Below, piece after piece: positions 1 to 38,065 of a stretch of DNA of 64,000 bases; positions within the stretch are counted from its first letter, which is position 1, and each line of letters begins with the position of its first letter. The notes below the pieces were generated by a model that had not been told where the DNA came from, made no database searches, and worked only from the letters and a program-made list of their open reading frames with translations. The position numbers were made by a program, and so were the translations under genes. This DNA is from Nitrospirota bacterium (lineage in GTDB: Bacteria; Nitrospirota; UBA9217): assembly GCA_020052615.1 (NCBI GenBank), contig JAGVOT010000038.1, positions 43,028 through 107,027 of the forward strand, read 5' to 3'.

Positions 1-296
1 ATGGCAATGATCTCCTGCGCCGGTTTCTTCGACAGGTTCGACAGGACGATCACCGTAATAGCTTCGCCGGGAGCAACCTGCTTGATCACGGCCGCGATCG
101 TTTCAGGCTTCTGCTCCTCGAAGAAATACGCGCGGGTCTTCTTTTCAAAGGTTTTCATGTCCTTCGACTGGCGCTCACTGATCTTCCGGACCAGCCGGTC
201 CAGCTCCTCAGGCTCGGAAAACCGTGCGCCATAAACAGCAGCGGGTACCAGCAGCAAAAAAACCATAAGTGCGGCAAGAACATTCCCTTTTCTCAT
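1..296 (-). CDS. hypothetical exported protein (5' part only; gene runs off the window start)
   Basis: Not in the ORF track because there is no stop in the window. ATG at 296-294 overlaps the TGA of the upstream RND gene (ATGA). My translation MRKGNVLAALMVFLLLVPAAVYGARFSEPEELDRLVRK... has a signal-peptide-like N-terminus. Confidence 0.45.
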   Translation of the reverse strand, partial: MRKGNVLAALMVFLLLVPAAVYGARFSEPEELDRLVRKISERQSKDMKTFEKKTRAYFFEEQKPETIAAVIKQVAPGEAITVIVLSNLSKKPAQEIIA

Positions 297-2596
297 TCCT
301 TAGCTCCTTCCTTGAATAGCCAGCCCTGTGTCAATGTAATAAGGGCGGGCAGATAGAGTATCGTCATCAACGCGCTCAAGAGCATCATGCTCACAATGAA
401 CGCGCCCACGGTGATATACGGCGTAAGCGGAGCGAACAGCATGACCGCGAAAGCGGCGGCAAAGAGGATCGCGTTCCGCATAATGCCCTTGCCCGGCCGC
501 GCGGCGGTCCAGAGCAGGGCGTCGGCCAGCGATTCTCCGGGTGCTTCCTTCATCCTCTGACGCAGCCTGCTCACAAAATGGATGGCGAAATCAACAGCCA
601 TGCCGAGCGAGAGGCAGCTCATGACCGAGATCGGCATATCGAAGTCCTTGCCGATGAACCCGACGACGCCGTAAATGAGAATGATCGTGAAGAGGAGCGG
701 GATGTAGCCGATCATCGCCCATTTGACCGAGCCGAAGTCATAGGCAAGGATCGCGAACACGGCGATCAGCGCCAGGATCAGGCCCTTCACCATGTCCCAG
801 AGAACTTCATGGTTCCAGACCAGGTTAAAGTAGGCGATGCCCGCGGGCTTGAACTGCATGGGAGCATTGTTTTCCTTCCGGTATTCCTCGACCGCCGCGA
901 TCACCGATTCCATCGCCTTTGCGTCCCAGGTCTTGAGCTGCACCCAGATATTGGCCTTGCGGAAAGGATAATCAACAACGTTGTCGAGGTCGGAGGGCTT
1001 TGCCGACATGGCAAAGAGGAACAGATATTGGCCGATCATCTCCTTGTTCTCGGGGACAGCGTCAAACTTCGGATCGTCGTTATGAAGCACGCGGTTGATG
1101 CGCTTCACGTAATCCACGACCGAAGTTGTCTTGCCCACGACCGGGAGATTTTCCAGGCGGCGCTGAAGTCCTTCGATGGAGCGCATGGCTTCCGGCGTCT
1201 TGATGTAATCGTCTTTATCGGATATCGCCACGATGTAGCCGAGAGACGTTCCGCCCAGGGCTTTGTTCATGACCGTGTCGGCCACGCGCACGTCGCTGCC
1301 CTTCTTGAACCATTCCACAAGGTTGTTGTTCACGACCGTCTTCGATATGCCGACGATGGCCACGACGACGAGCACAACGCCGACGAGAACCGTCGTGGCG
1401 GGTTTTTGTATGCCGAGCCCGGCAAGCTTTCTCAGGACCGACGACCCGCCCGCCTCGGAATCCTCCGACCGGGATATTTTCTCGATCTTCTCATTCTTCA
1501 CAAAGGTGAACATGGCCGGGATGAAGCTGAAGCTCAGGACCCGGAGAACGATGGTCCCGAACGCCACGAGCCCGCCGAAGACCTTGACGGGGATGATGTT
1601 CATGAACAGAAGCACGCCGAAACCGACCGCCGTTGCCAGGGCGGTATTGCGCACAGGCCTGCTGACGGCGTTCATGGTCGCGATGATCGCAGCGCGTTTG
1701 TCCTTCGTCTCGCGGTAGCGGAAGTAGAATTCATTGAAGATGTGCATGCTGTCCGTAGCGATGGCCATCATGAACACGGGGGCCATGGAGCTCATGATGT
1801 GGATCGGGAAGCCGAGTCCGATCAGGAGGCCCATGCTCCAGACAATGCTGATCATGGCATCCATCATGAGCGTCAGGGAAAGGAACAGGTCCTTGAACAT
1901 GAGGAACCGGACCAGCAGCATGACCATCCCGGCAATCGGCGCGAACACCGCCATGAGCTTGAACATGTCCGCTCCGAAGGTGTCCCGCGCCACGGGATCA
2001 CCGGCAACGTAATACTTCTCGTCGCCCTTCTCGGACTTGATGATCTCCCTGATCTTGTCTGCGATCTCTTTCCCGTTGCCGCCTTTTTCGAGCGGAACAT
2101 AGATCGCCGTGGTCTTGCCGTCCTTTGAGATGATGCGGTCGATGAAAAGCGGGTTTTCAAAGAGCGCCTTGCGCATGACAGCCATCTCTTTGTCGGTCTT
2201 CGGCACCGTGGTCATGAGCGGGCGCACGTTCAGCGTCTCATTCTCGACGGTCACGTTGTCGATGGTCGTGAAGCTCGATACGTCGCGGGCCGCAACCCCT
2301 TTGATCTTCACGATCTCGTCGGTGATCCGCTGTATCTTGCCGAGCGTTTCAGGATTCAGGATGCCCTTTTCGTTCTGGATGCCGAGAACGATCATATCCT
2401 CATAGAGGCCGAAGGTCTTTTCAACCTCGTCGTTCCCGACCCGGACAGCGGACGTGGGCGGCAGCATGTTCTTGGGATTGGTGTCGGTCCTCACTTTCGG
2501 GAACTGGGTCAGGAAAAGGACCGTGACAACGACCGACAGAACGACAATAAGCTTCGGGTGGTCGACCGAAAACTCGACCAGAGAAAATTTCTTCAT
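293..2596 (-). CDS. MMPL/RND-superfamily exporter (COG1033, HpnN-like)
   Basis: 767 aa. One N-terminal TM, a large soluble loop, then a multi-TM block (GADMFKLMAVFAPIAGMVMLLV, DSMHIFNEF). A second loop and second TM block follow, giving the duplicated MMPL layout. Confidence 0.8.
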   Translation of the reverse strand: MKKFSLVEFSVDHPKLIVVLSVVVTVLFLTQFPKVRTDTNPKNMLPPTSAVRVGNDEVEKTFGLYEDMIVLGIQNEKGILNPETLGKIQRITDEIVKIKGVAARDVSSFTTIDNVTVENETLNVRPLMTTVPKTDKEMAVMRKALFENPLFIDRIISKDGKTTAIYVPLEKGGNGKEIADKIREIIKSEKGDEKYYVAGDPVARDTFGADMFKLMAVFAPIAGMVMLLVRFLMFKDLFLSLTLMMDAMISIVWSMGLLIGLGFPIHIMSSMAPVFMMAIATDSMHIFNEFYFRYRETKDKRAAIIATMNAVSRPVRNTALATAVGFGVLLFMNIIPVKVFGGLVAFGTIVLRVLSFSFIPAMFTFVKNEKIEKISRSEDSEAGGSSVLRKLAGLGIQKPATTVLVGVVLVVVAIVGISKTVVNNNLVEWFKKGSDVRVADTVMNKALGGTSLGYIVAISDKDDYIKTPEAMRSIEGLQRRLENLPVVGKTTSVVDYVKRINRVLHNDDPKFDAVPENKEMIGQYLFLFAMSAKPSDLDNVVDYPFRKANIWVQLKTWDAKAMESVIAAVEEYRKENNAPMQFKPAGIAYFNLVWNHEVLWDMVKGLILALIAVFAILAYDFGSVKWAMIGYIPLLFTIILIYGVVGFIGKDFDMPISVMSCLSLGMAVDFAIHFVSRLRQRMKEAPGESLADALLWTAARPGKGIMRNAILFAAAFAVMLFAPLTPYITVGAFIVSMMLLSALMTILYLPALITLTQGWLFKEGAKE

Positions 2597-3091: not shown

Positions 3092-3426
3092 GATGATCGT
3101 CTCCTTTCTTTAACGCTCGCGGCCCGGGCCGTCTTTTCCATCATTCCGGTAATCGCTTCCTGCATAACGGCGCAGGCATGGGCGATCTTGTCATCCGAAA
3201 GGCTATAGTAGACATGCTTGCCATGCCTTCGCGTTCTCAGAACATTTTTCATCCGCATAAAGTTCAGCATCAGCGACGTATGGGCTTTCGTTATGCCGAT
3301 TTCCTTCTGGATATCGGACACGGTCTTCTCTCCTCCCCGAAGCAGGTCCAGGATCTCGATCCGCTTCGGGTTGGTAAAGGTCTTGCAGAATTCAGCGTGC
3401 AATTCGTAGAAATCTTCTTTTTTCAT
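3088..3426 (-). CDS. ArsR/SmtB-family transcriptional regulator
   Basis: Winged HTH NPKRIEILDLLRGGEKTVSDIQKEIGITKAHTSLMLNFMRMKNVLRTRRHGKHVYYSL. I moved the start to ATG 3426, which forms an ATGA overlap with the sqr stop. Two Cys residues (C14, C85) flank the DNA-binding core. Confidence 0.8.
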   Translation of the reverse strand: MKKEDFYELHAEFCKTFTNPKRIEILDLLRGGEKTVSDIQKEIGITKAHTSLMLNFMRMKNVLRTRRHGKHVYYSLSDDKIAHACAVMQEAITGMMEKTARAASVKERRRSS

Positions 3427-4613
3427 GGCAGATTGCTCACCCCGTTTTTCATCTTCCACAGGAAGTATTTTTCAAACCCGACCTTCATCCATCTCGCCCA
3501 TACGGCTTTCTTGGTATAGGAACTTTGCCTCGGCGGAAGGACCGGATAGGCCTTCATCAGGGCGGCAGTATTCCCCATGTCCATAAGGCAGACCACACCG
3601 AGTTCATCAGGTACGGGCGGCGTCTTCCCGGCAATATCCGACGCAATGGTCGCGGCGGCGGTCTTCGCCATCTTGACGGTCATGAACCCGGTCTTGGGCA
3701 CACCCGTCGGCACCGGCGTCACCTCGGGCGGCGCTATGGCTATCGCGACGCCGATCGCGAAAATATTCTGGTGTTTGGTGTGGCGATAGTTCCTGTCCAC
3801 GGGGATGAAGCCCCGCGGATTGCCCAGCGGCGCGACAGCGGGAACGCCCTTGAAGGGCGGCGCGATCATGGCGAGCCTGAACGGTACTTTATTGCCGTCC
3901 TTCAAGCGTATCTCTCCCGGCGCGACCTCCTGAATGGCCTGGCTCACCAGCGGCTTGATGTCCCGTTCGGCGAACTCATGCTCCATGAAGGTCTTTGAGG
4001 CGCCAAGTCCGCCTACGCCCATATGACCGAGATACGGTTCTGACGTGAGATAGAGAATGGGTACTTTGTGCCGCATCTTCCTGCGGCGGAGTTCCGCGTC
4101 CATCTCGAAGGCAAGCTCATAGGACGGACCGAAGCAGCTGACCATCTGCGATGAACCGAGGACGACAGGCCCGGGATTTTCGAGAACGCTCCGCCACGTC
4201 GCTCCGGTCTTTATGGCATGATCGAGGGTGAAGGTGCAGGCGGTATAGCCTTTATCCGGTCCGAGGCCGGGGACCTCGTCAAAGGCCAGATGCGGACCGG
4301 TTGATATGACGAGATGATCGTAGGGAAACGTTCTCCCCTTGGAGGTAATTACCTTCGATGAATCAGCATCGATCTGCTTCGCGGAATCGTGAACAAACTC
4401 GATCCCCTTCGGCTTCAGGATCTCGCCGATCGTGAGCGTAATGTCCTCCGGCCTCCGCCAGCCCATGATGAGCCAGGGCAGCGACGGCAGGAACACGAAC
4501 CGGTCATCGTCGCTCACCACGGTCACTGATGCTTTGTTCCCCAACAGCCGCTTAAGTTCAAAGGCTGCCGTCAATCCTCCGAACGATCCTCCCAAAACAA
4601 CGATCTTCGACAT
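3423..4613 (-). CDS. sqr: sulfide:quinone oxidoreductase (type I SQR-like flavoprotein)
   Basis: 396 aa. N-terminal FAD motif VVLGGSFGG. SQR-like blocks include FKGVPAVAPLGNPRGFIPVD, IAIAPPEVTPVPTGVPKTGFM and KVGFEKYFLWKMKNG. Three Cys sit at the expected SQR positions (YTACTF, VSCFGPSYE, VVCLMDMG). Confidence 0.85.
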   Translation of the reverse strand: MSKIVVLGGSFGGLTAAFELKRLLGNKASVTVVSDDDRFVFLPSLPWLIMGWRRPEDITLTIGEILKPKGIEFVHDSAKQIDADSSKVITSKGRTFPYDHLVISTGPHLAFDEVPGLGPDKGYTACTFTLDHAIKTGATWRSVLENPGPVVLGSSQMVSCFGPSYELAFEMDAELRRRKMRHKVPILYLTSEPYLGHMGVGGLGASKTFMEHEFAERDIKPLVSQAIQEVAPGEIRLKDGNKVPFRLAMIAPPFKGVPAVAPLGNPRGFIPVDRNYRHTKHQNIFAIGVAIAIAPPEVTPVPTGVPKTGFMTVKMAKTAAATIASDIAGKTPPVPDELGVVCLMDMGNTAALMKAYPVLPPRQSSYTKKAVWARWMKVGFEKYFLWKMKNGVSNLP

Positions 4614-4668: not shown

Positions 4669-4950
4669 TTAGAACATCCCGACGACCTTCTTGCCTCCCG
4701 TTATGAGATCTGTCAGCTTATCGAAGTCAATGGTCTTTGCCCTTGCATCCAGCTCCGAATCCTTGAGACCCCGCAGCCTCTTGTCGTCATCCAGGAGATA
4801 GACCTGCCCCGAAAAGCTCCCCAGTCTGTCCTTTTGAGCGAAATAAACACCATTCTGCAGCAGAACGAGATCGGCCCCGCCTTCCTTCGCAAGGGTTAAG
4901 CCAGTTGCTCCATCAGTGGTGTCAGGTGCGCTTTTTATCATCACGATCAT
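4669..4950 (-). CDS. DsrH/TusB-like protein
   Basis: 93 aa. Size, gene order after the DsrE/DsrF-like genes, and the segment ADLVLLQNGVYFA are typical of DsrH/TusB. Confidence 0.6.
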   Translation of the reverse strand: MIVMIKSAPDTTDGATGLTLAKEGGADLVLLQNGVYFAQKDRLGSFSGQVYLLDDDKRLRGLKDSELDARAKTIDFDKLTDLITGGKKVVGMF

Positions 4951-4961: not shown

Positions 4962-5321
4962 TCAGAATAGCATTGTCGATCTTGCTTCTTTCACCAGACC
5001 TGCAATCACCTGTGCGCTGACCGATTTTACGCCCTCTACCATGTCACCTCGGTCCAAACGCTGCGCTTTCAAAGAATCGTCGTCGGCATACACCGACACA
5101 CCCATATCCAGGCAATCCTTGAGGGTGGCCTCAAGATTCGTGAACCCGGTCCCTGTGTCGTCCTGCCCCTTTTTCGCAAGCAGCACCCCGCCGTCCACCA
5201 GGATCAGGTCAACGCTCATTTCGAATGACACCGCGCCGAGCGCATGCCGTACCGCTTCGGCTGCGTTGATATCGCCGTAAGGAGACCTCTTTAAGATCAT
5301 CGCAACAGTGGCCATATTCAC
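4962..5321 (-). CDS. DsrF/TusC-like protein
   Basis: 119 aa. KRSPYGDINAAEAVRHALG...DLILVDGGVLLA matches the DsrE/F-family fold. It lies between the DsrE-like and DsrH-like genes. Confidence 0.65.
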   Translation of the reverse strand: MNMATVAMILKRSPYGDINAAEAVRHALGAVSFEMSVDLILVDGGVLLAKKGQDDTGTGFTNLEATLKDCLDMGVSVYADDDSLKAQRLDRGDMVEGVKSVSAQVIAGLVKEARSTMLF

Positions 5322-5356
5322 CTCCCATAAAGTTCATTCCGCAATCCGCAATTCCC

Positions 5357-5713
5357 TCAGGCCCCGAGATTGAGCCAGATATCGGTCTTGCCCATGGTGG
5401 CAAATAGTCCTTTGAGAGAACCGACCTCGGTGTTTGCAAGGTAATCGTCTTTCGCAGCACGGCGAAAGTTGAGGCAGCCGCCTCAGAGATACACCTTCAG
5501 ACCTTTTTGGATCAGCCTCGCGAACTCTTCCTCGCCGTTCAGGATGCCCTTTGCCTTTTGCTTGGTGAGAAAGCAATAGACGCCGTCCGCCGATGCAATG
5601 AGGTTGACGGTGTGACCCTTGTTCAAGGCCGATTCGGCAATGCGGGCGCTCGTCAGGGTGTTCTCGTAGGAGTAAGGCGACGTGGACAGATAGAGAGTGA
5701 TCGTTTTCGACAT
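5357..5713 (-). CDS. DsrE/TusD-like protein, probable selenoprotein (in-frame TGA at 5483-5485 read as Sec77)
   Basis: The track ORF 5483..5713 stops after 76 aa (..KGLKVYL). The same frame stays open for 41 more codons (GGCLNFRRAAKDDYLANTEVGSLKGLFATMGKTDIWLNLGA) to TGA 5357-5359. The total of 118 aa is the normal DsrE/TusD size. The TGA sits where this family has its catalytic Cys, ahead of an RR motif. Confidence 0.65.
5449..5468 (-). promoter_or_regulatory. candidate bacterial SECIS hairpin
   Basis: On the mRNA, 14 nt after the UGA: CUUUCGC-CGUGCU-GCGAAAG. This is a perfect 7-bp stem with a 6-nt loop containing GU. Confidence 0.45.
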
Positions 5714-5846
5714 GGCAACCTCCTTTTTATAGATCGCTATCGCTTATAAGTGCCGTCTTCAGGCTTGCATCAGTATTTTTTTTCATAGTGAAAGGGTGGG
5801 CTCCCGCAGAAGATTTTAAATGGATCAATGCAACTGCCAGGATCAA

Positions 5847-6188
5847 TCAGTGTCGTCTTTCGCCTGGATAGGTTCCTTTTTTCGTCACCGGACAGCATGC
5901 CGGCGCGGGGACATCCTCTTCGTATTCTTTTTTCAACAACTGAAGCAGGTCGGGGATGAGAGGTTCTTTGAGGAAATAACACTTGAGCCTGCCGTCGACG
6001 AAGAAATCGACGATGCCGTTCGTCCGAAGCAAGGTCAGGTGTTGGGAGATATTGGGTTGGCTTATATCGAGGGAATCTTCGAAATCGCTCACGCACTTGA
6101 CGCCCTGAGTGAGTTCCTCAAGGATTTTGATTCGGACGGGATGGGCAATGACTTTGAGGAGATCGATTCTTTTCTCAATGGGAATCAT
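5847..6188 (-). CDS. ArsR/SmtB-family transcriptional regulator
   Basis: LKVIAHPVRIKILEELTQGVKCVSDFEDSLDISQPNISQHLTLLRTNGIV is a canonical ArsR wHTH. The tail is Cys-rich (PACCPV). Start set at ATG 6188 (MIPIEKR) rather than the GTG at 6236. Confidence 0.8.
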   Translation of the reverse strand: MIPIEKRIDLLKVIAHPVRIKILEELTQGVKCVSDFEDSLDISQPNISQHLTLLRTNGIVDFFVDGRLKCYFLKEPLIPDLLQLLKKEYEEDVPAPACCPVTKKGTYPGERRH

Positions 6189-6241
6189 TTTGTCGGTTTC
6201 TCCTTTTAAACACGGCAGTAGACACCAAGAATACACTCTAT

Positions 6242-6534: not shown

Positions 6535-7509
6535 TCAATAAAAATACTGCACAATATACTTTATCGCGAGAAACATGATCGCGCTGCCCACGAAGACCTT
6601 GATGAACTTCTGCGGCATATATTTCTGCGTCTTCGCGCCAAGATACATGCCTATGAATCCACCCACGCCGAACAATATCCCCAGGGGCCAGTCCGGCATG
6701 GGGGAAGCGCCGTTCGTTGCCGGCAGTATGCTGAAGAAGAGCGCCCCGGCGACCGACGTAATGAACGTCCCCATGAGCGTCGCGCCCGCTATGGTGTAGA
6801 TGGGCAGGTTGAAGAAGGCAACACAGAACGGCGCGATGATCGCGCCGCCGCCGATGCCGTATGCCCCGCCGATGATGCCGACAATGAACGCCAGGCTGAA
6901 CATGCCGATGGTGTGGAAGCTGAACCGCTCGCCCCAGAACTCGTATTCTACCAGTTTCATCGAGACGCTGATGGTTTTCACGACCGCGTCAGTGGGAATG
7001 CCCGCTGCCATCTTCGAGCTTTGGTCCTTCCTGATCTCTGCAGTCCTGGCCTTGAACTTCTCTTCCAGCGATTTAGCCGCAGCGGACTGCGCCTTGTTCG
7101 GAAACAGCAGCTCCTTGAACAACCGGAATCCGATGTAGAACAGCACGCAGCCGACGAAGAGTTTGAACATTTTCGGACCGGGAAGATACAGGACCCGGAG
7201 GTAATATCCGATGAACACGCCCGGCAGGGTCCCCGCGATGACCACCCAGGTCAGAGGCCAGGCCATACGGCCTTCTTTCACGTACCGGTACACGCCGCTC
7301 GGGATCGCCACGATGTTGAAGACGTGGTTCGTGCCGCTCACGGATGGGGCCGTATAGTTCAGCACGCTCATCTGGAACGGCAGGAGCAGGAAAGCGCCAG
7401 ATATGCCGCCCATGGAGGTAAAGAAGGAAATAACGAGGGAGATCAGCGGAGGGAGAAGGACATTCGTGGTGACGCCGGATATGGGAAAGGTCATGTTGAA
7501 TATATCCAT
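6535..7509 (-). CDS. TauE/SafE-family (DUF81) sulfite/organosulfonate exporter-like membrane protein
   Basis: 324 aa and polytopic. It has two halves with Gly-rich helices (FFTSMGGISGAFLLLP and IIGGAYGIGGGAIIAP) separated by a charged loop. Confidence 0.75.
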   Translation of the reverse strand: MDIFNMTFPISGVTTNVLLPPLISLVISFFTSMGGISGAFLLLPFQMSVLNYTAPSVSGTNHVFNIVAIPSGVYRYVKEGRMAWPLTWVVIAGTLPGVFIGYYLRVLYLPGPKMFKLFVGCVLFYIGFRLFKELLFPNKAQSAAAKSLEEKFKARTAEIRKDQSSKMAAGIPTDAVVKTISVSMKLVEYEFWGERFSFHTIGMFSLAFIVGIIGGAYGIGGGAIIAPFCVAFFNLPIYTIAGATLMGTFITSVAGALFFSILPATNGASPMPDWPLGILFGVGGFIGMYLGAKTQKYMPQKFIKVFVGSAIMFLAIKYIVQYFY

Positions 7510-11417: not shown

Positions 11418-12146
11418 CTATCTCAAAGATTCAAGATTCGGCATGAAGGTCAGGGTGAAGACTTCATCCTTGAAGTTCCGTGCCTTGATCTTTGCCAAGA
11501 TCATGATCGACTTGTAATTCTTGTAAAGCGGGCTGTCCGTCTCGATGACCGCTGGCCGGATAAGCCCATTGCCGAAATCCTTCACGTCCTTGAAGTAGAG
11601 GGTCTTGATCAACATACCCGCCTCGGTCAGGCATTCGATCTTCGTCGGGAGTGTTCGCTCCCTCTCTGCCCGGAGACGTATCCGGTCGTAGGCCACGGTC
11701 TTTGTCTTTGCCTTGAGATGGAGGAGGTATTCGCTCCCCTGCTCCTCGACCTTCTCGACATTGTATTCCGCAGCATAATCGAGTTGCAGAATGTCGGCAT
11801 TGTTGAACACCCCGCCGACCACGGACTGAAGGCTCGTGATCCTGATGGGCTTGCCCACGTTCGGTATGTAGAGCCACATATTATCCCCGAGCCGCAGGGT
11901 GCTCCTGCCCTTTTCACTGGCAGGCGCGATAAAGAGCGATGCAACCTTATCAACGCCTTTTTTGACGGTAAAGAGCGTGAACTCTTTCTTCCGTCCGTCA
12001 GGCTCGATGTTGATGAGCTTCCGGTACGACTCGTAGGACTCCGGGTTCAGGTTCCGGTCCAACTGATTCAGCAGCTCCGTGCCGTCTAGTGCAAAAACGG
12101 GCGCAGCGAACAGCAGTATGACGAGAAATGCGACAATATGTTTCAT
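11418..12146 (-). CDS. LolA-like outer-membrane lipoprotein-sorting family protein
   Basis: Signal peptide MKHIVAFLVILLFAAPVFA. The blocks FTLFTVKKGVDKVASLFIAPASEKGRSTLRLGDNMWLYIP are typical of the LolA_like family found with FtsX/MMPL genes. AGGAGG lies 6 nt upstream of ATG 12146. Confidence 0.65.
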   Translation of the reverse strand: MKHIVAFLVILLFAAPVFALDGTELLNQLDRNLNPESYESYRKLINIEPDGRKKEFTLFTVKKGVDKVASLFIAPASEKGRSTLRLGDNMWLYIPNVGKPIRITSLQSVVGGVFNNADILQLDYAAEYNVEKVEEQGSEYLLHLKAKTKTVAYDRIRLRAERERTLPTKIECLTEAGMLIKTLYFKDVKDFGNGLIRPAVIETDSPLYKNYKSIMILAKIKARNFKDEVFTLTFMPNLESLR

Positions 12147-12156
12147 GGACAACCTC

Positions 12157-13395
12157 CTAGACATGCCTGAGCGCTTTTATCGGCTCCATCCTCGACGCCT
12201 TGAACGCGGGCTGGAGGCTTGCAACCACCGAGACGATGATCACCGTAACGGATATGGTCAGAAGATCCGCCGGGGTTATGGTCGCCGACAGATGCAGTCC
12301 CTTCTGCTGTCCGAAATCAAAGGTTATCCTGGAAAGATTGAGAATATAAACGATCGCGATTCCCACGATGTCACCGACGACCGCGCCCACAATACCAAGG
12401 CAAAAACCTTCGATCACGAACAGGGAGAGGATCTTTCCGGGCAGTGTCCCGATGGCGGCAATGGTGCCGATCTCCCGTATACGCTCATAGACCGCCATGA
12501 TCATGACATTCATGATGCTGATCAGGACAATGGCGATGAGCATAAGCTTGATGAAAAAGGTCATCATGTCGATCATCCGGGCGATATTGTAAAAGGGCGT
12601 AAGCTGCTCCCAGGAATGCACCTCGAAGAGCGGTTTTCCCTGCTTGTTCAATTCACCGGACAGCAGGCTTTCAATTTTTTTTGAAAAGCGATGAAGCTTG
12701 CTGAAATCCTTCATCCTGATCGCCACCTCGCTCACCTCCGGTTCTTCCATCCGGAGAAGCTCCACGGCGTCCTCAATGTGGATGTACCCGTCCCGTCCCC
12801 CTGGACCGGTTACGCCCTCGACCACACCGGAGACCCGGAACTGCCTGCCGTTGACCGAGCCGTCCTTGTTGGTCGCGACCACGACCACGGTGTCACCGAC
12901 CTTCACCCCCATGCCTTTCGCCAGAAGGGTAGGAACGAGGATCTCCCCCCTACTGAGTGTTTTTTCACCTTCAACGATCCGGGAGGGCAAGAGCGGCACG
13001 GTTGAAAATTCCCGTTCAGGATAGACCGCGACCAGCCTGATATTCGTCGTTTCAACAAAATTGCTGAACATGCCGCCGAATTTTATTCTTGGTGAGTACG
13101 CCGCTATCTCCGATTGCTGGTCGAGTACGCTTTTTAATCGGTCGGCGGCCCCGGCCTTCAGGTTCAGGTTCAGCGGAAGGTTGTCGATGGACGCCACATA
13201 GCCCTTGCGGTGGACCTGCAGATGGCCGAGCATGGAATCGGTGATCTGCCCGATCATCATGTTCTTAAAGGAGCCGGATACCGCGAGGAAGACCAGCACG
13301 AATACGATGCCGATGGTGATGAGCGAGGCAGTGAGCAATGTCCTTCTTTTGTACCGCAGAAGGTTCCTGACGGCTATTTTAAAGAGATTACCCAT
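12157..13395 (-). CDS. ABC transporter permease, FtsX/MacB type
   Basis: [22 protein letters not shown], then a TM, a large periplasmic domain and a C-terminal 3-TM FtsX domain. Confidence 0.85.
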   Translation of the reverse strand: MGNLFKIAVRNLLRYKRRTLLTASLITIGIVFVLVFLAVSGSFKNMMIGQITDSMLGHLQVHRKGYVASIDNLPLNLNLKAGAADRLKSVLDQQSEIAAYSPRIKFGGMFSNFVETTNIRLVAVYPEREFSTVPLLPSRIVEGEKTLSRGEILVPTLLAKGMGVKVGDTVVVVATNKDGSVNGRQFRVSGVVEGVTGPGGRDGYIHIEDAVELLRMEEPEVSEVAIRMKDFSKLHRFSKKIESLLSGELNKQGKPLFEVHSWEQLTPFYNIARMIDMMTFFIKLMLIAIVLISIMNVMIMAVYERIREIGTIAAIGTLPGKILSLFVIEGFCLGIVGAVVGDIVGIAIVYILNLSRITFDFGQQKGLHLSATITPADLLTISVTVIIVSVVASLQPAFKASRMEPIKALRHV

Positions 13396-14092
13396 TGTTC
13401 TTCCCTCCCTTTGCCTGTCTGTCCTTCAGCTCGCCGTCCTCAAGGGAGTAGATGATCTCGGCCTCTCCCACGATCTTCTGGTCATGGGTCGAGAAGATGA
13501 ACGTCGTCCTGAACTCGTCCCGCATCTTTTTCATCAGATCGATCACCATATATGCTGTTGTATGGTCCAGGTTGGCCGTGGGTTCGTCGGCAAGAACGAG
13601 CTTCGGGTTCGTGACCAGCGCCCGCGCCACCGCCACGCGCTGCTTCTGGCCGCCTGATATCTGGTCAGGATATTTGTCCTTCTGCTCGATCATTCCCACA
13701 GCCTGCAAAAGGGCGTTTACGCGCTTTTTTCTTTCTTCGGCAGGAGTGTTCCGGACCATCAGGAGAGGATATTCGATGTTCTCAAACACCGTGAGCACCG
13801 GCAGGAGATTGAAGTCCTGAAAGATAAAGCCGATGTTGGTTCCCCGGAATGCGGCGCTCTGTTTACGGTCGAGAACCGCTGTATCCGTGTCGGCCACGGT
13901 GAGCTTGCCTCCTGTGGGTCGATCGAGGCATCCGATCAGATTCAGCAGCGTCGTCTTGCCGCTGCCCGACGGCCCGACAAAGGAGACAAACGATGCCGGT
14001 TCGATCTCAAAACTGATTCCCTTGAGCGCCGCGATGCTGACCTCGCCTGCCTGATAATCCTTCCGCACATTTTCAGCAGTTATTAATGACAT
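13388..14092 (-). CDS. ABC transporter ATP-binding protein (MacB/LolD type)
   Basis: Walker [13 protein letters not shown], signature [15 protein letters not shown], Walker B LVLADEPT. Start set at ATG 14092, with GGGAGG 5 nt upstream. Confidence 0.9.
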
Positions 14093-14144
14093 ACAGGCCT
14101 CCCTGTGCCGGAACATGATTCATGGGATCTATTATGACAGATAT

Positions 14145-15392
14145 TCATCGTCCTTGCATCTCCTGCGGCTTGATGTTCCTGAGCCGGAAAAAGAGCGCAT
14201 AGTTTATCGCCAGGAAGATGCCCAGAAAAGCCGCGCTCAGCTGCACGAGCGACAGCCAGTCGATATGTATCGGGATCTGCGCGGTGATGATCCGTTCAAT
14301 GCTGTTCTCCTGCGGCAGGAAATGAGGCTTTGCCGATATATCCCAGGGCAGTTCCATCGAGATGGTCCGGGTGCGCAGGAAGCCCAGTCCCGCCAGGGCC
14401 AGGAGATTGCCCGCAACCAGGGAAACGGCAAGCAGCACAAGGGTCTCCCCGATGAACTGCCTTTTCAGGTCGGCTAACTTCCAGCCGAGCATCCGCAGGA
14501 CCGATATCTCTTTTTCCCTTGTCTTGAGATTGAACATGATCAGGAGGCAGAACGCGACAAGAAGCGCCGTTCCGAGAACGAGAAACATGATCCTGCCGGA
14601 GGCGGATATAAGCTTCAGCTGATCCTGTATTTCCTTAGTGAAGGTCCGCTCGCTAAAGACCAGCAGCTCCTTGTTTATCGCCTTAATCGCTTTCTCCTTG
14701 TCACCCGTCCATGCGGGATCGGTCCTGAGGAGAACAACGTTGCTGATCCGGCCGTCTCCAAGCGCATAGAGCTTGTGCATTTCCGTCGATCTTCTCGCGC
14801 TCGTGGACGCTTCCAGGATGTTCATGTAAACGTCTGCGGGGATGATATTCCCGCTCATATTCGGCTTTAGAATTCCGCGGACCACGTACTCTTTTCCTAG
14901 GATGTCCAACGTTGAGCCGCTGGACAGATCGTTCTTTTTGGCGAAGTCGGCGGTGACCAGTACGCCGATGCCGGAAAGATCAAAACCGCCCTGCAGCATG
15001 TTGTTTTTCAGGATATCTGCGACGATGCGGGAACCGTGGTCCACGCCAAGGACAGCCGCGAATGCTTTTTTGTCAAACGCCCAGAAATAGAGCCCGCTGT
15101 CATGGCCTTCCACGAAGGGAAGGCCTGTTAGTGCGACGCGCTCGCCCTCACTGATGGGAGCATTTGAATGCGGGAAGATAAGCCCGACCATCTTCTCGGG
15201 GATCTTCCCCGTCTTCTGCACAATAGTCTGAACACCGATGCTTTTAAGGGGAACGGCGGCTATATCGGGGATGCTTCTGTCCAGCATGACAGAAACAGCG
15301 ATAAGGCTGAAATAGAGGCTGAGACTCAATAAAAGCAGCGCGACCTTGATCTTATTGTTCCGCACAAATGAGGTGAAATAACTTTTCATCAT
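14145..15392 (-). CDS. FtsX-like ABC permease
   Basis: N-terminal TM, large extracytoplasmic domain and a C-terminal FtsX-type segment (LRMLGWKLADLKRQFIGETLVLLAVSLVAGN). Confidence 0.7.
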   Translation of the reverse strand: MMKSYFTSFVRNNKIKVALLLLSLSLYFSLIAVSVMLDRSIPDIAAVPLKSIGVQTIVQKTGKIPEKMVGLIFPHSNAPISEGERVALTGLPFVEGHDSGLYFWAFDKKAFAAVLGVDHGSRIVADILKNNMLQGGFDLSGIGVLVTADFAKKNDLSSGSTLDILGKEYVVRGILKPNMSGNIIPADVYMNILEASTSARRSTEMHKLYALGDGRISNVVLLRTDPAWTGDKEKAIKAINKELLVFSERTFTKEIQDQLKLISASGRIMFLVLGTALLVAFCLLIMFNLKTREKEISVLRMLGWKLADLKRQFIGETLVLLAVSLVAGNLLALAGLGFLRTRTISMELPWDISAKPHFLPQENSIERIITAQIPIHIDWLSLVQLSAAFLGIFLAINYALFFRLRNIKPQEMQGR

Positions 15393-16459
15393 AGCTTGAA
15401 CCCCTGATCAAGAATGGGCGCGTTCCGCAGCATCGGCAAAAGGCCGTTGGAAAGGAGGACGGCCAGGATAAGCGCCAGAACGAGACCGGCGCCCGCGACA
15501 ACGGATATATCGAAGAGCAACCACGTGAAGATGTCCTTTTTCGGCCAGCCGAGAGTTCTCAAGACATCGGCCTGATAGCGGAAGTCCATCCGGTATATCT
15601 TCAGTATCCATACGATAAGCAGCAGTGATACGGGCAGGATGGTCAGCACAAAAGCGCTGCCGAAGCGGTAGAGGAATTGATTAAAGCTGGAGAGATTTTT
15701 CAGGAGGCTGTCCTTCGTAATAAGCGAATATCCGGGAAAGAGGCTCTCCACCTTCCGGCTGACAGCGGTCATGTCCGATGATGATTGCAGGGAAATATAC
15801 ACCTGGTTGACAACCGGCTCCTTCTGCCCTGACAGCTTCAATCCCGTTTCATAGGGCAGAAATATCGAGGCGGTGCTCAGGTTGCTCTGTTCCTTGAAAT
15901 CCACGATCCCCGCGATCGTATACTGCTGATCTGCAAGCTCGAACGCGCTGTTGACTTCATGTTTGTAAAGCCTGGCAAAATGGCGTTCAAGAATAACTTC
16001 CCGGGCGGCGTTCCCGGCGAAGAACCTTCCGCCAGGCATGAGAAATGACTCGATCTTCCGCAAGCCTACCTGCGGCTCGTCCGTGTTCAGGGCTATGATC
16101 GTCCTTGTATTGTTCAGGTCGAATTGCCAGAGCACCAGCGCCGATGAGTATTGCCTGACTTCTCCTATGTCCTTCAGTTTATCCCGCATCGTGTTCAGGG
16201 AAAATGCCTGAAGATTGAAAGGCGGAATTACCCCGGTGGTTCGTATCTCCTCCGCCTTGCCGCCGGTCCGGTCGTTCTGCAATATCAATTCCGTCTGCAG
16301 CGACTGCAACGGTCTTTCGGCAAGTTCCTTGATATGGCTTGTCATGACCACCGCAGCGATCGGGATGAACATCATCAGGCCCGTCAGAAATACCGTCAGC
16401 AGCACCTTTCTGATGTAAAATAGCTGGTTCCTGAGTATGATTCCGGCCACACCCATCAT
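15389..16459 (-). CDS. FtsX-like ABC permease
   Basis: Same architecture as 14145..15392. The C-terminal segment is VLRTLGWPKKDIFTWLLFDISVVAGAGLVLAL. It has 4-nt overlaps with both neighbours. Confidence 0.65.
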   Translation of the reverse strand: MMGVAGIILRNQLFYIRKVLLTVFLTGLMMFIPIAAVVMTSHIKELAERPLQSLQTELILQNDRTGGKAEEIRTTGVIPPFNLQAFSLNTMRDKLKDIGEVRQYSSALVLWQFDLNNTRTIIALNTDEPQVGLRKIESFLMPGGRFFAGNAAREVILERHFARLYKHEVNSAFELADQQYTIAGIVDFKEQSNLSTASIFLPYETGLKLSGQKEPVVNQVYISLQSSSDMTAVSRKVESLFPGYSLITKDSLLKNLSSFNQFLYRFGSAFVLTILPVSLLLIVWILKIYRMDFRYQADVLRTLGWPKKDIFTWLLFDISVVAGAGLVLALILAVLLSNGLLPMLRNAPILDQGFKL

Positions 16460-16872
16460 TTGCCCTTTTCAACCGCCGAGAGAACCCCGTCGAGGTCCCG
16501 ATAGCTCCAGTTGCCTTCGAACATGGGGACGAACGCATTCCCTTTCGGGAAGTTCTTGAACGTGACCTTCCTCTTCCCAAGAGTGAATTCGTTTTGCCCA
16601 TCTATGAATATGACAACCGGCATGTGTTCTCGCAGATTATATCTCGCGAGTAGTTTTTTGCTTCGCGGGTCTTCGAAGCTGTATTTCGCGACTTTGAATT
16701 GATCGTGTTTTTTCACTACCGCTTCAACATCCTTCACCACTGCTTCGGCCGGAGGATGGGGCAGGTAGAATATCTCCACAACCCCGGATGCCGCCATAGC
16801 AGGAACAGGACTGATAACGGCAGAGACTATAAAGACGGCAGCAATGATCGCTTTCCCCGTTCTTATGTACAT
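16456..16872 (-). CDS. hypothetical periplasmic protein
   Basis: 138 aa with a signal peptide (..VISPVPAMAAS). It overlaps both neighbouring genes, so it belongs to the ABC operon. I recognise no family. Confidence 0.4.
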   Translation of the reverse strand: MYIRTGKAIIAAVFIVSAVISPVPAMAASGVVEIFYLPHPPAEAVVKDVEAVVKKHDQFKVAKYSFEDPRSKKLLARYNLREHMPVVIFIDGQNEFTLGKRKVTFKNFPKGNAFVPMFEGNWSYRDLDGVLSAVEKGK

Positions 16873-17522: not shown

Positions 17523-17572
17523 GTGGTGATTTTCTCCTCCGCTACCTGATACGAGCGGGACAACGCTCCAGG

Positions 17573-37669: not shown

Positions 37670-37811
37670 GATTATCTCCCTGGGATTATTTTGGCACGGC
37701 TACATGCCGCACGCACAGCCTGATTCCCGACTAACAGGATCATCCCGGAAGCTATGACAGCACAGAGGATAATAGCATGTCCATGATCACTTCTCCTTGT
37801 ACGCGAGGATC

Positions 37812-37951
37812 GGAATAAGACGTCTCCTGGCTTAGGACAACCTACTCGCCGGCCTTCCCGCCCCTGTCAGGGCAGTGGCATGATCGGCTTTCGTTTCCAT
37901 CACAGTTGCGCGACAGCAGGGGAATCACACCCCTTTCCGTTCTCTTATTCC
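37812..37951 (-). promoter_or_regulatory. cobalamin riboswitch aptamer, proximal copy
   Basis: Minus-strand RNA: GGAAUAAGAGAACGGAAAGGGGUGUGAUUCCCCUGCUGUCGCGCAACUGUGA...GCCACUGCCC...GGGAAGGCC...AAGCCAGGAGACGUCUUAUUCC. P1 is GGAAUAAGA/UCUUAUUCC. The B12-box-like AGCCAGGAGAC is at 37822-37832. Confidence 0.85.
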
Positions 37952-37969
37952 TCCATACAACTTCAAAAC

Positions 37970-38004: not shown

Positions 38005-38065
38005 ATTAATAATATGCTCTATTAACCCACACAAAAACTTATCTCCGAAGATTGTGCGAGAACAC

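What the first reader, a model, noticed from the sequence alone, without database searches (positions are those of the whole stretch)
5357..5713. DsrE/TusD-like gene with an in-frame UGA at the catalytic-Cys position plus a SECIS-like hairpin: probable selenoprotein
Seen in sequence:
- The 76-aa ORF ends ...KGLKVYL at TGA 5483-5485.
- The same frame continues for 41 codons (GGCLNFRRAAKDDYLANTEVGSLKGLFATMGKTDIWLNLGA) to TGA 5357-5359.
- The combined 118 aa is a normal DsrE/TusD length.
- Fourteen nt after the UGA the mRNA forms a perfect 7-bp hairpin, CUUUCGC-CGUGCU-GCGAAAG, with GU in the loop (5449-5468).
- The track ORFs covering this stretch (5209..5460, 5334..5576) are out of frame and Arg/Pro-rich.

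Established knowledge: in A. vinosum DsrE and E. coli TusD the persulfide-accepting Cys78 lies in a V-C-x(5-6)-RRG context. Here residue 77 is the UGA, followed by GGCLNF-RRA. DsrE-like selenoproteins have been reported in computational selenoproteome surveys of Deltaproteobacteria.

Inference: this is a Sec-containing first acceptor of a sulfur relay, and an ORF caller would truncate it.
Basis: partly seen in the sequence, partly recalled or inferred. Interest (0 to 1): 0.7.

Follow-up and report, generated by a model that had tools for sequence, protein, structure and literature searches.

The report
Selenocysteine DsrE-like sulfur-carrier gene, mis-annotated
A small sulfur-carrier gene that gene callers cut short at an internal UGA almost certainly reads that codon as selenocysteine at its active site, a known kind of selenoprotein that is truncated in every database entry found for this bacterial group.

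Summary
On the minus strand a 76-codon DsrE-family ORF (5713-5486) ends at TGA 5485-5483. The same frame continues for 41 codons to TGA 5359-5357. A 7-bp hairpin starts 14 nt after the first TGA.

In 32 related genomes that cover the site, codon 77 is always TGA, while the terminal stop varies (TGA, TAG, TAA). The downstream 41 codons are under strong purifying selection (dN/dS 0.05-0.16). The hairpin codons are frozen at synonymous sites.

Two more distant clades keep U-x-x-C and a hairpin of different sequence at about the same place. Full-length homologues have Cys at this position. Profile alignment puts it on Cys78 of A. vinosum DsrE and E. coli TusD.

Relatives carry a selD gene, itself with an in-frame TGA at the canonical Sec site, a few kb downstream of the same operon. 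So the clade decodes Sec.

The gene heads a conserved operon: arsR, dsrE(Sec), dsrF-like, dsrH-like, sqr, RND/MMPL.

DsrE-like UxxC selenoproteins have been known since 2005, so this is a new member of a known kind. New here are the DsrEFH-like/SQR context, the selD-tauE-yedF neighbourhood and the uniform mis-annotation.

The parts
5357..5713 (-). Full dsrE-like selenoprotein CDS: 118 codons plus the stop, read through the internal UGA. ATG is 5713-5711 and the true stop is TGA 5359-5357.
   Evidence: Translation. Pfam DsrE match over residues 5-109, spanning the UGA. The whole frame is conserved in 32 related loci. dN/dS for codons 78-118 is 0.05-0.16.
5483..5485 (-). UGA, codon 77, the proposed selenocysteine codon. 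It is the first residue of a U-G-G-C motif.
   Evidence: TGA in the window and in 32 of 32 related loci, while the terminal stop varies between TGA, TAG and TAA. The column is Cys in 12 of 13 full-length homologues. It aligns to Cys78 of DsrE (2HY5_A) and TusD (2D1P_A) and to the first Cys of CKTC in YchN.
5474..5476 (-). Cys80 codon (UGC), the second residue of the UxxC motif.
   Evidence: Invariant in the 14 aligned read-through proteins. Present as CxxC in most Cys homologues.
5449..5468 (-). SECIS-like hairpin CUUUCGC-CGUGCU-GCGAAAG, 14 nt after the UGA. Most relatives have an 8-bp stem with a GUGC loop.
   Evidence: Fold. Codons 82-85 (N-F-R-R) use a single codon each in 28 sequences, with third-position entropy 0 against roughly 0.4-1.9 at most other codons. 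Two distant clades have different 7-bp hairpins with a G-containing tetraloop 11-15 nt after their UGA. Base rate of such hairpins after TGA triplets is 1.4%.
5719..5725 (-). Shine-Dalgarno sequence AAGGAGG, 5 nt upstream of the ATG.
   Evidence: Read directly from the sequence.
4962..5321 (-). dsrF/tusC-like gene. The likely start is ATG 5315, 41 nt after the true dsrE stop.
   Evidence: Pfam DsrE 1.1e-13. NCBIfam TusC/DsrF 40.4 bits, below the cutoff of 94. Syntenic in about 30 loci.
4669..4950 (-). dsrH/tusB-like gene. The protein has no cysteine.
   Evidence: Pfam DsrH 2.2e-8. NCBIfam TusB/DsrH 35 bits, below the cutoff of 49.2. Syntenic. Sequence.
3423..4613 (-). Sulfide:quinone oxidoreductase (SQR), 396 aa.
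   Evidence: Aquifex SQR 3HYV E = 2.5e-98; A. ferrooxidans SQR about 1e-96. The VSCFGP and VCLMDMG cysteine motifs are aligned. The protein ends about 35 residues before the Aquifex C-terminus. Syntenic.
5847..6236 (-). ArsR/SmtB-family regulator upstream of the operon.
   Evidence: Pfam HTH_5 1.3e-11. PDB relatives include the persulfide sensors BigR (3.5e-8) and SqrR (4.7e-7), but also metal-sensing ArsRs. Conserved upstream in nearly all loci.
293..2596 (-). RND/MMPL (HAE3-type) transporter downstream of sqr.
   Evidence: NCBIfam HAE3 2.7e-52. Follows sqr in most related loci.
6535..7509 (-). TauE/SafE-family anion permease upstream of arsR.
   Evidence: Pfam TauE 2.6e-37. TauE genes recur next to this operon, next to the Cys homologue P0130 and next to selD.

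Best explanation
The gene at 5713-5357 (minus strand) encodes a 118-residue DsrE/YchN-fold protein. Codon 77 (UGA, 5485-5483) is read as selenocysteine.

Mechanism of recoding: an mRNA hairpin that begins 14 nt after the UGA acts as the bacterial SECIS. It would recruit SelB carrying Sec-tRNA(Sec) when the ribosome reaches the UGA, so translation continues to the true stop at 5359-5357. Sec77 occupies the position of the persulfide-carrying Cys78 of DsrE and TusD, and with Cys80 it forms a U-G-G-C motif.

Shown here: the UGA, the conserved and selected downstream frame, the Sec/Cys pairing with homologues, the conserved hairpin, the operon arsR-dsrE(U)-dsrF-dsrH-sqr-RND, and Sec use (a Sec-type selD) in relatives that carry the same operon.

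Inferred function: the protein is the reactive subunit of a DsrEFH/TusBCD-like hetero-oligomer. That complex would take sulfane sulfur (polysulfide or persulfide) made by the adjacent sulfide:quinone oxidoreductase and carry it as a Se-S(n) adduct on Sec77. Cys80 could resolve the adduct by forming a selenenyl-sulfide. An ArsR-type repressor would control the operon, and the TauE and RND transporters would dispose of products.

The confidence of 0.85 refers to the selenoprotein call. I rate the sulfane-sulfur-carrier role downstream of SQR at about 0.45.
For: - Sequence and fold.
- The Pfam DsrE match spans the UGA.
- There are 398 database homologues, and the best 120 listed cover only residues 1-76 of the query, most being exactly 76 aa long. 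No full-length annotated form was found; only 37-38-aa C-terminal fragments are called.
- 32 of 32 genome loci that cover the site have TGA at codon 77, followed by GGC[LVMQ]NFRRA.... Their terminal stops vary.
- Third-position variation with conserved amino acids downstream: dN/dS 0.05-0.16 where dS could be estimated (it was saturated in many comparisons).
- Hairpin codons 82-85 are frozen at synonymous sites.
- Two further clades have U-T-G-C or U-G-S-C, with hairpins of different sequence that still pair 7 of 7. One of these clades matches Candidatus Rokubacteria records.
- Cys-containing full-length homologues exist: P0130 (CGGC), P0131 (CGTC), P0141 (CGSC) and others.
- U77 aligns to Cys78 of DsrE and TusD and to the CxxC of YchN.
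- An AlphaFold2 model of the Cys homologue P0130 has pLDDT 92.9 and needs the C-terminal 40 residues to complete the fold. TM-scores to DsrF, YchN, DsrE and TusD are 0.84-0.88.
- TGA is the normal and commonest terminator in the window (25 of 49 genes), so the recoding is site-specific.
- selD with TGA at the canonical site (SSCAG-U-AAKFSP) lies downstream of the same operon in L011, L031, L047, L048, L049 and L052. It scores 361.7 bits on TIGR00476 against a cutoff of 125.
- The operon is conserved, and the neighbour is a true SQR homologue.
- Literature criteria for the family: PMC1088965.
Against: - No selA, selB, selC or selD lies in the 64-kb window, and no tRNA-Sec was found in any fetched locus. 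Sec decoding in this particular genome is therefore inferred from relatives.
- The hairpin shows no compensatory change within the close clade, only conservation. Three sequences keep a pair through a wobble change and about seven carry one or two mismatches.
- No Rfam family matches the hairpin.
- There is no protein-level evidence.
- For the function: the family scores below the NCBIfam cutoffs for TusC/DsrF and TusB/DsrH, and the DsrE-like protein has no NCBIfam hit at all. The DsrH-like protein has no Cys. No tusA, dsrC or dsrAB is adjacent in the window. The neighbouring selD-tauE-yedF genes in relatives point at least as much to selenium as to sulfur.
Confidence: 0.85

Rival explanations
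1. Same selenoprotein, different job. The DsrE(Sec)FH-like complex with SQR would be a selenium-handling module rather than a sulfur relay. It would bind or reduce selenium species (selenide, selenopersulfide or Se(0)) on the Sec-x-x-Cys site and pass selenium towards YedF and SelD, or detoxify it. The ArsR sensor and the TauE and RND/MMPL transporters would belong to the same island.
For: - selD(Sec)-tauE, often followed by yedF/tusA, lies within 10 kb downstream on the same strand in 6 of the 7 distinct selD loci examined (L011, L031, L047, L048, L049, L052, but not L051; L050 carries the same selD without the operon on its 13.6-kb contig). Of the three picks made without prior hints, two were positive.
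- The L052 protein is a true YedF: TIGR03527, 179.7 bits against a cutoff of 110.
- YedF's DsrE-like domain carries a CGxC-L motif (SCGACL / SCGTCL), matching U-G-G-C-L here. YedF and YedE are selenium-linked by comparative genomics (PMC5322559).
- A YeeE/YedE-family transporter and a rhodanese lie inside the cluster in L041 and L052.
- The Chloroflexota Cys orthologue sits among SAM methyltransferases and next to an ArsP permease.
Against: - Selenoprotein genes often sit near sel genes simply because they depend on them.
- Every component (SQR, DsrEFH, rhodanese, YeeE, TusA) is also a classic sulfur-trafficking part (PMC13293266).
- selD is absent from the flanks of most of the 33 genome loci (6-kb flanks) and from the window.
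- The SQR is a close homologue of true sulfide-oxidising enzymes.
Confidence: 0.25
2. Same selenoprotein, acting as a UxxC thiol/selenol-disulfide oxidoreductase rather than a sulfur carrier. It would cycle between selenol/thiol and selenenyl-sulfide forms, as most bacterial UxxC selenoproteins are thought to do.
For: - The U-x-x-C motif is conserved in three clades, and CxxC is present in most Cys homologues.
- The literature classifies DsrE-like selenoproteins among redox UxxC proteins (PMC1088965, PMC13188914).
- YchN, the closest solved relative by sequence, has CKTC and no assigned relay partner.
Against: - The gene is always followed by dsrF- and dsrH-like genes, as in the DsrEFH/TusBCD carriers.
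- One Cys homologue lacks the second Cys (P0127, CEAS).
- The two roles are not exclusive: Cys80 may simply resolve the Se-S adduct.
Confidence: 0.15
3. The UGA is read through without selenocysteine, either by near-cognate insertion of Cys, Trp or Arg or by a reassigned UGA. The full-length protein would be made but would contain no selenium.
For: No Sec machinery is visible in the window. There is no protein-level data.
Against: - TGA terminates 25 of 49 window genes, including this one, so UGA is not reassigned.
- A conserved hairpin sits at SECIS distance in three clades.
- The homologous residue is Cys, the classic Sec partner.
- Relatives encode a Sec-type SelD next to the operon.
Confidence: 0.04
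4. The UGA is a genuine stop. The gene would be a truncated 76-aa DsrE fragment (a pseudogene or split gene), and the downstream frame would be non-coding or a separate small ORF.
For: This is how every gene caller annotated it: 76-aa 'DsrE family protein' entries, plus 37-38-aa hypothetical proteins.
Against: - The stop is TGA at the same codon in more than 35 independent assemblies from at least three clades.
- The downstream frame is under purifying selection.
- The Pfam domain and the predicted fold need the C-terminal 40 residues.
- Most sequences have no start codon for the downstream piece.
- A true stop would leave a 167-nt gap before dsrF, against 41 nt with read-through.
Confidence: 0.03

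Closest known systems
DsrE-like selenoprotein family (PF02635, UxxC motif). Zhang, Fomenko and Gladyshev 2005, Sargasso Sea (PMC1088965). A Desulfovibrio vulgaris member is reported in PMC1794560. The family is listed in the 2022 and 2026 reviews with WP_014524487.1 as example (PMC9312934, PMC13188914).
   Same: A DsrE Pfam domain with an in-frame UGA, a U-x-x-C motif, Cys homologues at the same site, and a hairpin with a G-containing small apical loop directly downstream.
   Different: I could not compare sequences with the published members. Neither the C-terminal word search nor the exhaustive N-terminal search returned an annotated full-length Sec form. The papers I read do not mention these contexts: first gene of a dsrEFH-like trio, next to sqr, near selD-tauE-yedF, in Nitrospirota and Candidatus Rokubacteria. 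The function of the published family is also unknown.
DsrEFH of Allochromatium vinosum (PDB 2HY5) and TusBCD of E. coli (PDB 2D1P)
   Same: Three consecutive genes in E-F-H (D-C-B) order and the same fold. The reactive residue is at the position of Cys78 of DsrE and TusD, followed by a conserved Arg.
   Different: Sec replaces Cys, and there is a second Cys three residues later. Scores are below the NCBIfam equivalog cutoffs, or there is no hit at all. The proteins are shorter, lacking the 12-residue insert of DsrE and TusD. The DsrH-like subunit has no Cys. The neighbours are sqr, arsR and RND rather than dsrAB/dsrC or tusA/tusE.
DsrEFH type II (cable bacteria and many sulfate reducers; subtype 1 mostly Nitrospirota). 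Plum-Jensen et al., ISME J 2026 (PMC13293266).
   Same: A divergent DsrEFH-like three-gene cluster with a single reactive residue in DsrE. It is frequent in Nitrospirota and linked to YeeE- and TusA-type partners, which occur in some related loci here (L041, L047, L049, L052).
   Different: That paper describes an active Cys67 and does not mention Sec. It attributes the 0.7% of sequences lacking the Cys to sequencing errors. The synteny described there is tusA plus yeeE with reductive dsrAB, not sqr. I had none of their sequences, so membership is untested.
YchN of E. coli (PDB 1JX7)
   Same: The closest solved structure by sequence (E = 4e-14 with the family profile). It has the same length (117 aa), and the first Cys of its C-K-T-C motif aligns with U77.
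   Different: YchN is a stand-alone homo-oligomer with Cys and no known function. It is not encoded with F- and H-like partners.
YedF, sulfurtransferase-like selenium metabolism protein (TIGR03527)
   Same: Its DsrE-like domain has a C-G-x-C-L motif, like U-G-G-C-L here. YedF is encoded next to selD-tauE in the same gene island in relatives (PMC5322559).
   Different: YedF has an N-terminal TusA-like domain and uses Cys. The window protein has no NCBIfam hit to YedF.

Membership tests
DsrE-like selenoprotein (UxxC) family | DsrE/DsrF Pfam domain (PF02635) that continues across an in-frame UGA | tested here: met
   Residues 5-109 match profile positions 3-109 of 116, E = 2.5e-13.
DsrE-like selenoprotein (UxxC) family | U-x-x-C motif | tested here: met
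   L-U-G-G-C-L. U-T-G-C and U-G-S-C occur in two further clades.
DsrE-like selenoprotein (UxxC) family | Cys-containing homologues with Cys aligned to the UGA | tested here: met
   Cys in 12 of 13 full-length homologues at column 77.
DsrE-like selenoprotein (UxxC) family | Bacterial SECIS-like stem-loop immediately downstream of the UGA, with a small apical loop containing G | tested here: met
   A 7-8 bp stem with a GUGC or CGUGCU loop, 14 nt after the UGA. It is frozen at synonymous sites, and different hairpins occupy about the same place in two other clades. bSECISearch itself was not available, and Rfam has no match.
DsrE-like selenoprotein (UxxC) family | The organism has the Sec-decoding trait (selA, selB, selC, selD) | tested here: inconclusive
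   None of these genes is in the window. Relatives with the same operon have a Sec-containing selD a few kb downstream. selA, selB and selC were not seen in any fetched DNA.
DsrEFH / TusBCD sulfur-relay complex (type I) | Three adjacent genes in the order E(D)-F(C)-H(B) | tested here: met
   Window positions 5713-4669. Conserved in about 40 loci.
DsrEFH / TusBCD sulfur-relay complex (type I) | Reactive Cys78 in DsrE/TusD | tested here: not met
   The aligned position is the UGA (Sec), not Cys. It is functionally analogous, but the residue is different.
DsrEFH / TusBCD sulfur-relay complex (type I) | Scores above the NCBIfam equivalog cutoffs for TusD/DsrE, TusC/DsrF and TusB/DsrH | tested here: not met
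   No hit for the E subunit. F scores 40.4 against 94.15 and H scores 35 against 49.2.
DsrEFH / TusBCD sulfur-relay complex (type I) | Conserved Cys in DsrH (Cys20 in A. vinosum; from my own knowledge) | tested here: not met
   The 93-aa DsrH-like protein contains no cysteine.
DsrEFH / TusBCD sulfur-relay complex (type I) | Genomic association with dsrAB/dsrC or tusA/tusE | tested here: not met
   None found next to the operon in the window. The neighbours are arsR, tauE, sqr and RND.
DsrEFH / TusBCD sulfur-relay complex (type I) | Hetero-hexameric (alpha-beta-gamma)2 assembly | not testable with these tools
   No multimer prediction was available. The monomer fold matches.
DsrEFH type II (PMC13293266) | Sequence membership in the type II clusters, with the active Cys67 | not tested
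The supplement search found no accession that overlaps my loci.
DsrEFH type II (PMC13293266) | Synteny with tusA and yeeE/yedE | tested here: inconclusive
   Absent next to the operon in the window. A YeeE-family transporter and a rhodanese lie in the cluster in L041 and L052, and tusA/yedF follows selD-tauE in L047, L049 and L052.
YedF (TIGR03527) | N-terminal TusA-like domain fused to a DsrE-like domain, scoring above the cutoff | tested here: not met
   No NCBIfam hit for the window protein. It is a single DsrE domain of 118 aa.

The most novel reading that the evidence does not exclude
The dsrE(Sec)FH-sqr module may be part of a selenium-utilisation island (arsR-dsrE(U)FH-sqr-mmpL...selD(U)-tauE-yedF). 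In this reading the Sec-x-x-Cys site carries selenium, not only sulfur. It would link an SQR-type flavoprotein to selenide supply for SelD, or to selenium detoxification. That would be a Sec-based chalcogen relay, which the papers I read do not describe.
Probability: 0.2. Interest if true: 0.8.

Novelty: new member of a known kind. Interest (0 to 1): 0.55.

Why it matters
1. Annotation. Every database entry found for this clade is a 76-aa stub, sometimes with a separate 38-aa 'hypothetical protein'. That covers 398 clusters and no full-length form. The neighbouring selD is likewise called without its Sec-containing N-terminus. Surveys that use dsrEFH as a marker for sulfur metabolism, or that score 'conserved active-site Cys', would misread these genes. 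A 2026 survey attributed its Cys-less DsrE sequences to sequencing error.

2. Biochemistry. Sec at the exact position of the persulfide-carrying Cys of DsrE and TusD would be a natural experiment on how a selenol changes sulfane-sulfur transfer. It sits next to a true SQR, whose sulfur acceptor is often unclear.

3. Selenium biology. The repeated proximity to selD(Sec)-tauE-yedF makes a link between SQR/DsrE-type proteins and selenium supply directly testable.

Tried and rejected
- The first protein search timed out and was repeated.
- The representative search refuses edited sequences (U to C) and sequences with internal stops, so I searched with the 76-aa N-terminal part only.
- An Rfam scan of the hairpin region at E <= 10 found nothing. 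Bacterial SECIS elements are too diverse for this to count against the call.
- A brute-force list of TGA read-through candidates in the window was dominated by spurious ORFs in this 56.5% GC DNA. By eye, no second selenoprotein candidate stood out. This was not a rigorous test.
- NCBIfam and Pfam scans of about 40 window ORFs found cobalamin biosynthesis, transporters, stress proteins and others, but no selA, selB or selD.
- ARAGORN found no tRNA-Sec in the window or in 42 loci.
- An exact look-up of the window's SQR found no record, so the source contig could not be extended.
They served only as tblastn bait, and the selD hits were then verified with NCBIfam. selA gave no hit, which proves little.
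- MAFFT could not register the three unrelated hairpins, so pairs were counted by script in a structure-based register. No covariance model was built, because the close clade's hairpin is nearly invariant.
- The supplements of the DsrEFH type II paper gave no accession that overlaps my loci.
- The ArsR regulator could not be assigned to persulfide-sensing rather than metal-sensing subtypes.
Full report
**1. The observation**

On the minus strand, ATG 5713-5711 is preceded by AAGGAGG at 5725-5719. It opens a frame that reads 76 codons to TGA 5485-5483 and then 41 more sense codons to TGA 5359-5357. The product is MSKT...KGLKVYL-U-GGCLNFRRAAKDDYLANTEVGSLKGLFATMGKTDIWLNLGA.

RNAfold places a perfect 7-bp hairpin, CUUUCGC-CGUGCU-GCGAAAG, at 5468-5449, 14 nt after the UGA (z = -2.1). 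A perfect hairpin of at least 7 bp, starting 8-20 nt downstream, follows only 1.4% of all TGA triplets in the window. With C in place of the stop, the 118-aa product matches Pfam DsrE over residues 5-109, that is, across the stop.

**2. Comparative evidence that the UGA is decoded**

A search of 5.8 billion proteins found 398 relatives. The best 120 listed cover only residues 1-76 of the query, and most are exactly 76 aa long. A query made of the C-terminal 49 residues found only 17 called fragments of 37-38 aa and no full-length form.

A scan of one genome per species returned 33 loci, nearly all labelled Nitrospirota or Nitrospirae MAGs. The results for these loci are:
- In all 32 loci that cover the site, codon 77 is TGA and is followed by GGC[LVMQ]NFRRA..., down to 71% identity. 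The terminal stop varies among TGA, TAG and TAA.
- Downstream of the UGA, the variation is concentrated at third codon positions. dN/dS for codons 78-118 is 0.05-0.16 where dS could be estimated, against 0.02-0.03 upstream.
- TGA is the commonest ordinary terminator in the window (25 of 49 genes). The recoding is therefore local, not a change of genetic code.

**3. The hairpin**

Codons 82-85 (Asn-Phe-Arg-Arg) use one codon each in 28 sequences, although Arg has six codons. Most other codons show third-position entropy of roughly 0.4-1.9 bits.

Most relatives have an 8-bp stem with a GUGC tetraloop. The window has a C/U mismatch at the closing pair. Within this clade there is no compensatory change. 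Three sequences keep a pair through a wobble change, and about seven carry one or two mismatches.

The stronger structural argument comes from two more distant clades found through the exhaustive search:
- L041-L043, L048 and L052 read ...KVDI-U-TGC-MKSRG, with hairpin AGCCGCG-GUCU-UGCGGCU 15 nt after the UGA.
- L044-L046 read ...AVHL-U-GSC-LRFRG, with hairpin GCGAUUC-AGGG-GAAUCGC 11 nt after the UGA. The matching protein cluster includes Candidatus Rokubacteria records.

So three clades use different sequences and partly different amino acids, yet each forms a 7-of-7 paired stem with a G-containing tetraloop at about the same distance. [quoted passage not shown] Rfam has no matching family.

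**4. Sec/Cys pair and the active site**

An exhaustive phmmer search of 1.84 billion representatives with the 76-aa part found only 41 clusters. Among them are full-length proteins with Cys at the UGA position:
- P0130: ...KVYLCGGCLGYRR, 53% identity
- P0131: CGTC
- P0141 and P0137: CGSC
- P0146: CGAC
- P0148 and P0149: CxxC
- P0127: C only

In the alignment the column is Cys in 12 of 13 homologues.

A profile of this alignment hits YchN (1JX7, 4e-14), A. vinosum DsrE (2HY5_A, 3.6e-12) and E. coli TusD (2D1P_A, 7e-7). The U77 column aligns with the Cys in MVVCVAAAQRRG (DsrE) and NICVAAALRRG (TusD). This is the Cys78 that the literature identifies as the sulfur-binding residue (PMC13293266). 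It also aligns with the first Cys of CKTC in YchN.

An AlphaFold2 model of the Cys homologue P0130 has pLDDT 92.9. It puts this residue at the end of strand 73-77 and the start of helix 78-83, and it shows that residues 78-116 supply two helices and two strands of the fold. Foldseek gives TM-scores of 0.84-0.88 to DsrF, YchN, DsrE and TusD. A 76-residue product would be an incomplete domain.

**5. Sec machinery**

The window contains no tRNA genes. No selA, selB or selD turned up among about 40 ORFs scanned or by tblastn. This point cannot be settled for the window's own genome.

However, a selD probe hit two of the related loci. In L011 and L031, selD lies a few kb downstream of the operon on the same strand. 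It has an in-frame TGA in M-E-[LI]-K-L-T-[HQ]-L-S-S-C-A-G-U-A-A-K-F-S-P, the canonical Sec/Cys site of SelD. With U replaced by C, it scores 361.7 bits on TIGR00476 (cutoff 125).

The 120 closest SelD relatives in the database are 290-326 aa long. This is consistent with calls that start after that TGA, as confirmed in the six loci inspected. Look-ups of five of them gave these results:
- The same arrangement, arsR-dsrE(76 or 72 aa)-dsrF-dsrH-sqr-...-selD-tauE(-tusA/yedF), occurs in L047, L048, L049 and L052. All four selD genes checked by translation (L047-L050) carry the same TGA.
- One locus, L051, has selD-tauE without the operon.
Of the three unbiased picks, two were positive.

A Sec-containing SelD needs a working Sec system, so this clade decodes UGA as Sec. 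In L049, selD lies about 7 kb beyond sqr. In the window that position falls off the left edge.

**6. The operon and the likely role**

The gene order in the window (minus strand) is:
- tauE, 7509-6535
- arsR, 6236-5847
- dsrE(U), 5713-5357
- dsrF-like, 5321-4962
- dsrH-like, 4950-4669
- sqr, 4613-3423
- RND/MMPL, 2596-293

. The core arsR-dsrE(U)FH-sqr-RND is conserved in about 30 Nitrospirota loci, in the two distant Sec clades and, with Cys, in a Chloroflexota MAG.

The flavoprotein is a true SQR homologue: Aquifex SQR at 2.5e-98, with both the VSCFGP and VCLMDMG cysteine motifs. It ends about 35 residues before the Aquifex C-terminus. DsrE(U) is the best-conserved protein of the operon. The DsrH-like protein has no Cys and the DsrF-like protein has one, so U77, C80 and the invariant C47 of DsrE are the candidate reactive residues.

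My best reading is inference from anatomy and from what is known of DsrEFH/TusBCD and SQR. The DsrE(U)FH-like complex would take up the sulfane sulfur produced by SQR on the more nucleophilic selenol, and Cys80 would be available to resolve the adduct. The ArsR protein is about equally similar to the persulfide sensors BigR and SqrR and to metal sensors.

**7. A rival function**

The repeated neighbourhood includes the following:
- selD(U)-tauE-yedF. The L052 protein is a true YedF: TIGR03527, 179.7 bits.
- A YeeE/YedE-family transporter and a rhodanese inside the cluster in L041 and L052.
- The C-G-x-C-L motif of YedF's DsrE-like domain, matching U-G-G-C-L here.
- YedE and YedF are selenium-linked by comparative genomics (PMC5322559).

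Together these keep open the possibility that this module handles selenium, either supplying SelD or detoxifying it. The same parts are also standard sulfur-trafficking components (PMC13293266), and selenoprotein genes often simply sit near sel genes. I put this reading at about 0.2-0.25.

**8. Comparison with what is known**

DsrE-like proteins with a UxxC motif were reported as a selenoprotein family in 2005 (PMC1088965). One member was found in Desulfovibrio vulgaris (PMC1794560), and the family is still listed as functionally uncharacterised in 2022 and 2026 reviews (PMC9312934, PMC13188914). By the criteria of that family, the window gene is a member: PF02635 across a UGA, UxxC, Cys homologues and a SECIS-like hairpin.

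It is not a true DsrE/TusD orthologue. There is no NCBIfam hit, the F and H subunits score below their cutoffs, and Sec replaces Cys78. I could not test membership in the recently defined DsrEFH type II (PMC13293266). That paper does not mention Sec and ascribes Cys-less sequences to sequencing error.

**9. Verdict**

It is a new member of a known kind.

What this analysis adds:
- The heterotrimer-operon and SQR context.
- Sec forms in at least three clades: Nitrospirota, Candidatus Rokubacteria and one unassigned clade.
- Truncated annotation of both dsrE and the neighbouring selD in every entry and locus examined.
- The selD-tauE-yedF linkage.

Confidence in the selenoprotein call is about 0.85-0.9. 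Confidence in the sulfane-sulfur-carrier role is about 0.45.

Noticed in passing
L011 8786-9826 (TGA at 8819); L031 7383-8423 (TGA at 7416); also L047, L048, L049, L050, L052: selD in these relatives is itself a selenoprotein (SSCAG-U-A[AS]KFSP). The 120 closest SelD database entries are 290-326 aa, consistent with calls that start after the Sec codon. selD is followed by a 259-260-aa TauE permease in every case seen.
   Followed up: yes
L047 11770-12400; L049 13007-13640; L050 7713-8330; L052 11772-12389: YedF (selenium metabolism protein) is one 205-aa ORF in L052. In L047, L049 and L050 its TusA-like and DsrE-like halves lie in different reading frames. This could be a frameshift, two separate genes or an assembly error; which one is unresolved.
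   Followed up: partly
window 3423-4613 (-): The SQR next to the operon ends about 35 residues before the C-terminus of Aquifex SQR. It may therefore lack part of the C-terminal region of the Aquifex enzyme. The 396-aa length is the same in many relatives.
   Followed up: partly
window 37801-37977 and 38052-38230 (-): Two tandem cobalamin riboswitches (85 and 82 bits) lie upstream of a ThiC/BzaB-like gene (36359-37669). A long cobalamin-biosynthesis cluster runs from about 20 to 36 kb (cbiG/cobJ fusion, cobB, cobQ, cobT).
   Followed up: no
L002 4824-5975 (+): In some relatives a multihaem c-type cytochrome (five CxxCH motifs) sits between tauE and dsrE(U). It has weak NCBIfam similarity to families named as (seleno)proteins: ExtKL and UshA-like.
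   Followed up: no
L042 9660-9980; L052 173-493: A second, complete 106-aa DsrE-family gene lies directly upstream of the truncated dsrE(U) in the 72-aa clade. It has a weak match to the DsrE-like part of YedF.
   Followed up: no
L036 6610-11523: The Cys-type orthologous operon in a Chloroflexota MAG has an ArsR-rhodanese fusion regulator and two SAM methyltransferases interleaved with dsrEFH and the SQR-like gene. An ArsP permease is nearby. This hints at metalloid or chalcogen methylation.
   Followed up: no
L047 4279-7392; L049 2696-5839: The MMPL/RND transporter is fused to a DUF1329/TP_0789-like (LolA-like) domain in some relatives (about 1040 aa) and separate in others. The window also has a LolA-like gene (11418-12164) and LolCDE-like ABC genes (12157-17600) upstream.
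   Followed up: no
window 39795-44468: A copper/heavy-metal P-type ATPase (39795-42203) sits near a thioredoxin-reductase-like flavoprotein with an N-terminal Cys-rich extension (43071-44162) and a small HMA-domain protein (44253-44468). These suggest a metal-stress region. Further on are CDF and ZIP transporters and universal stress proteins (56-60 kb).
   Followed up: no
literature: PMC13293266: The 2026 survey of DsrEFH type II reports 0.7% of sequences lacking the functional Cys and attributes this to sequencing errors. Some of these could be Sec (TGA) forms like the one here.
   Followed up: partly
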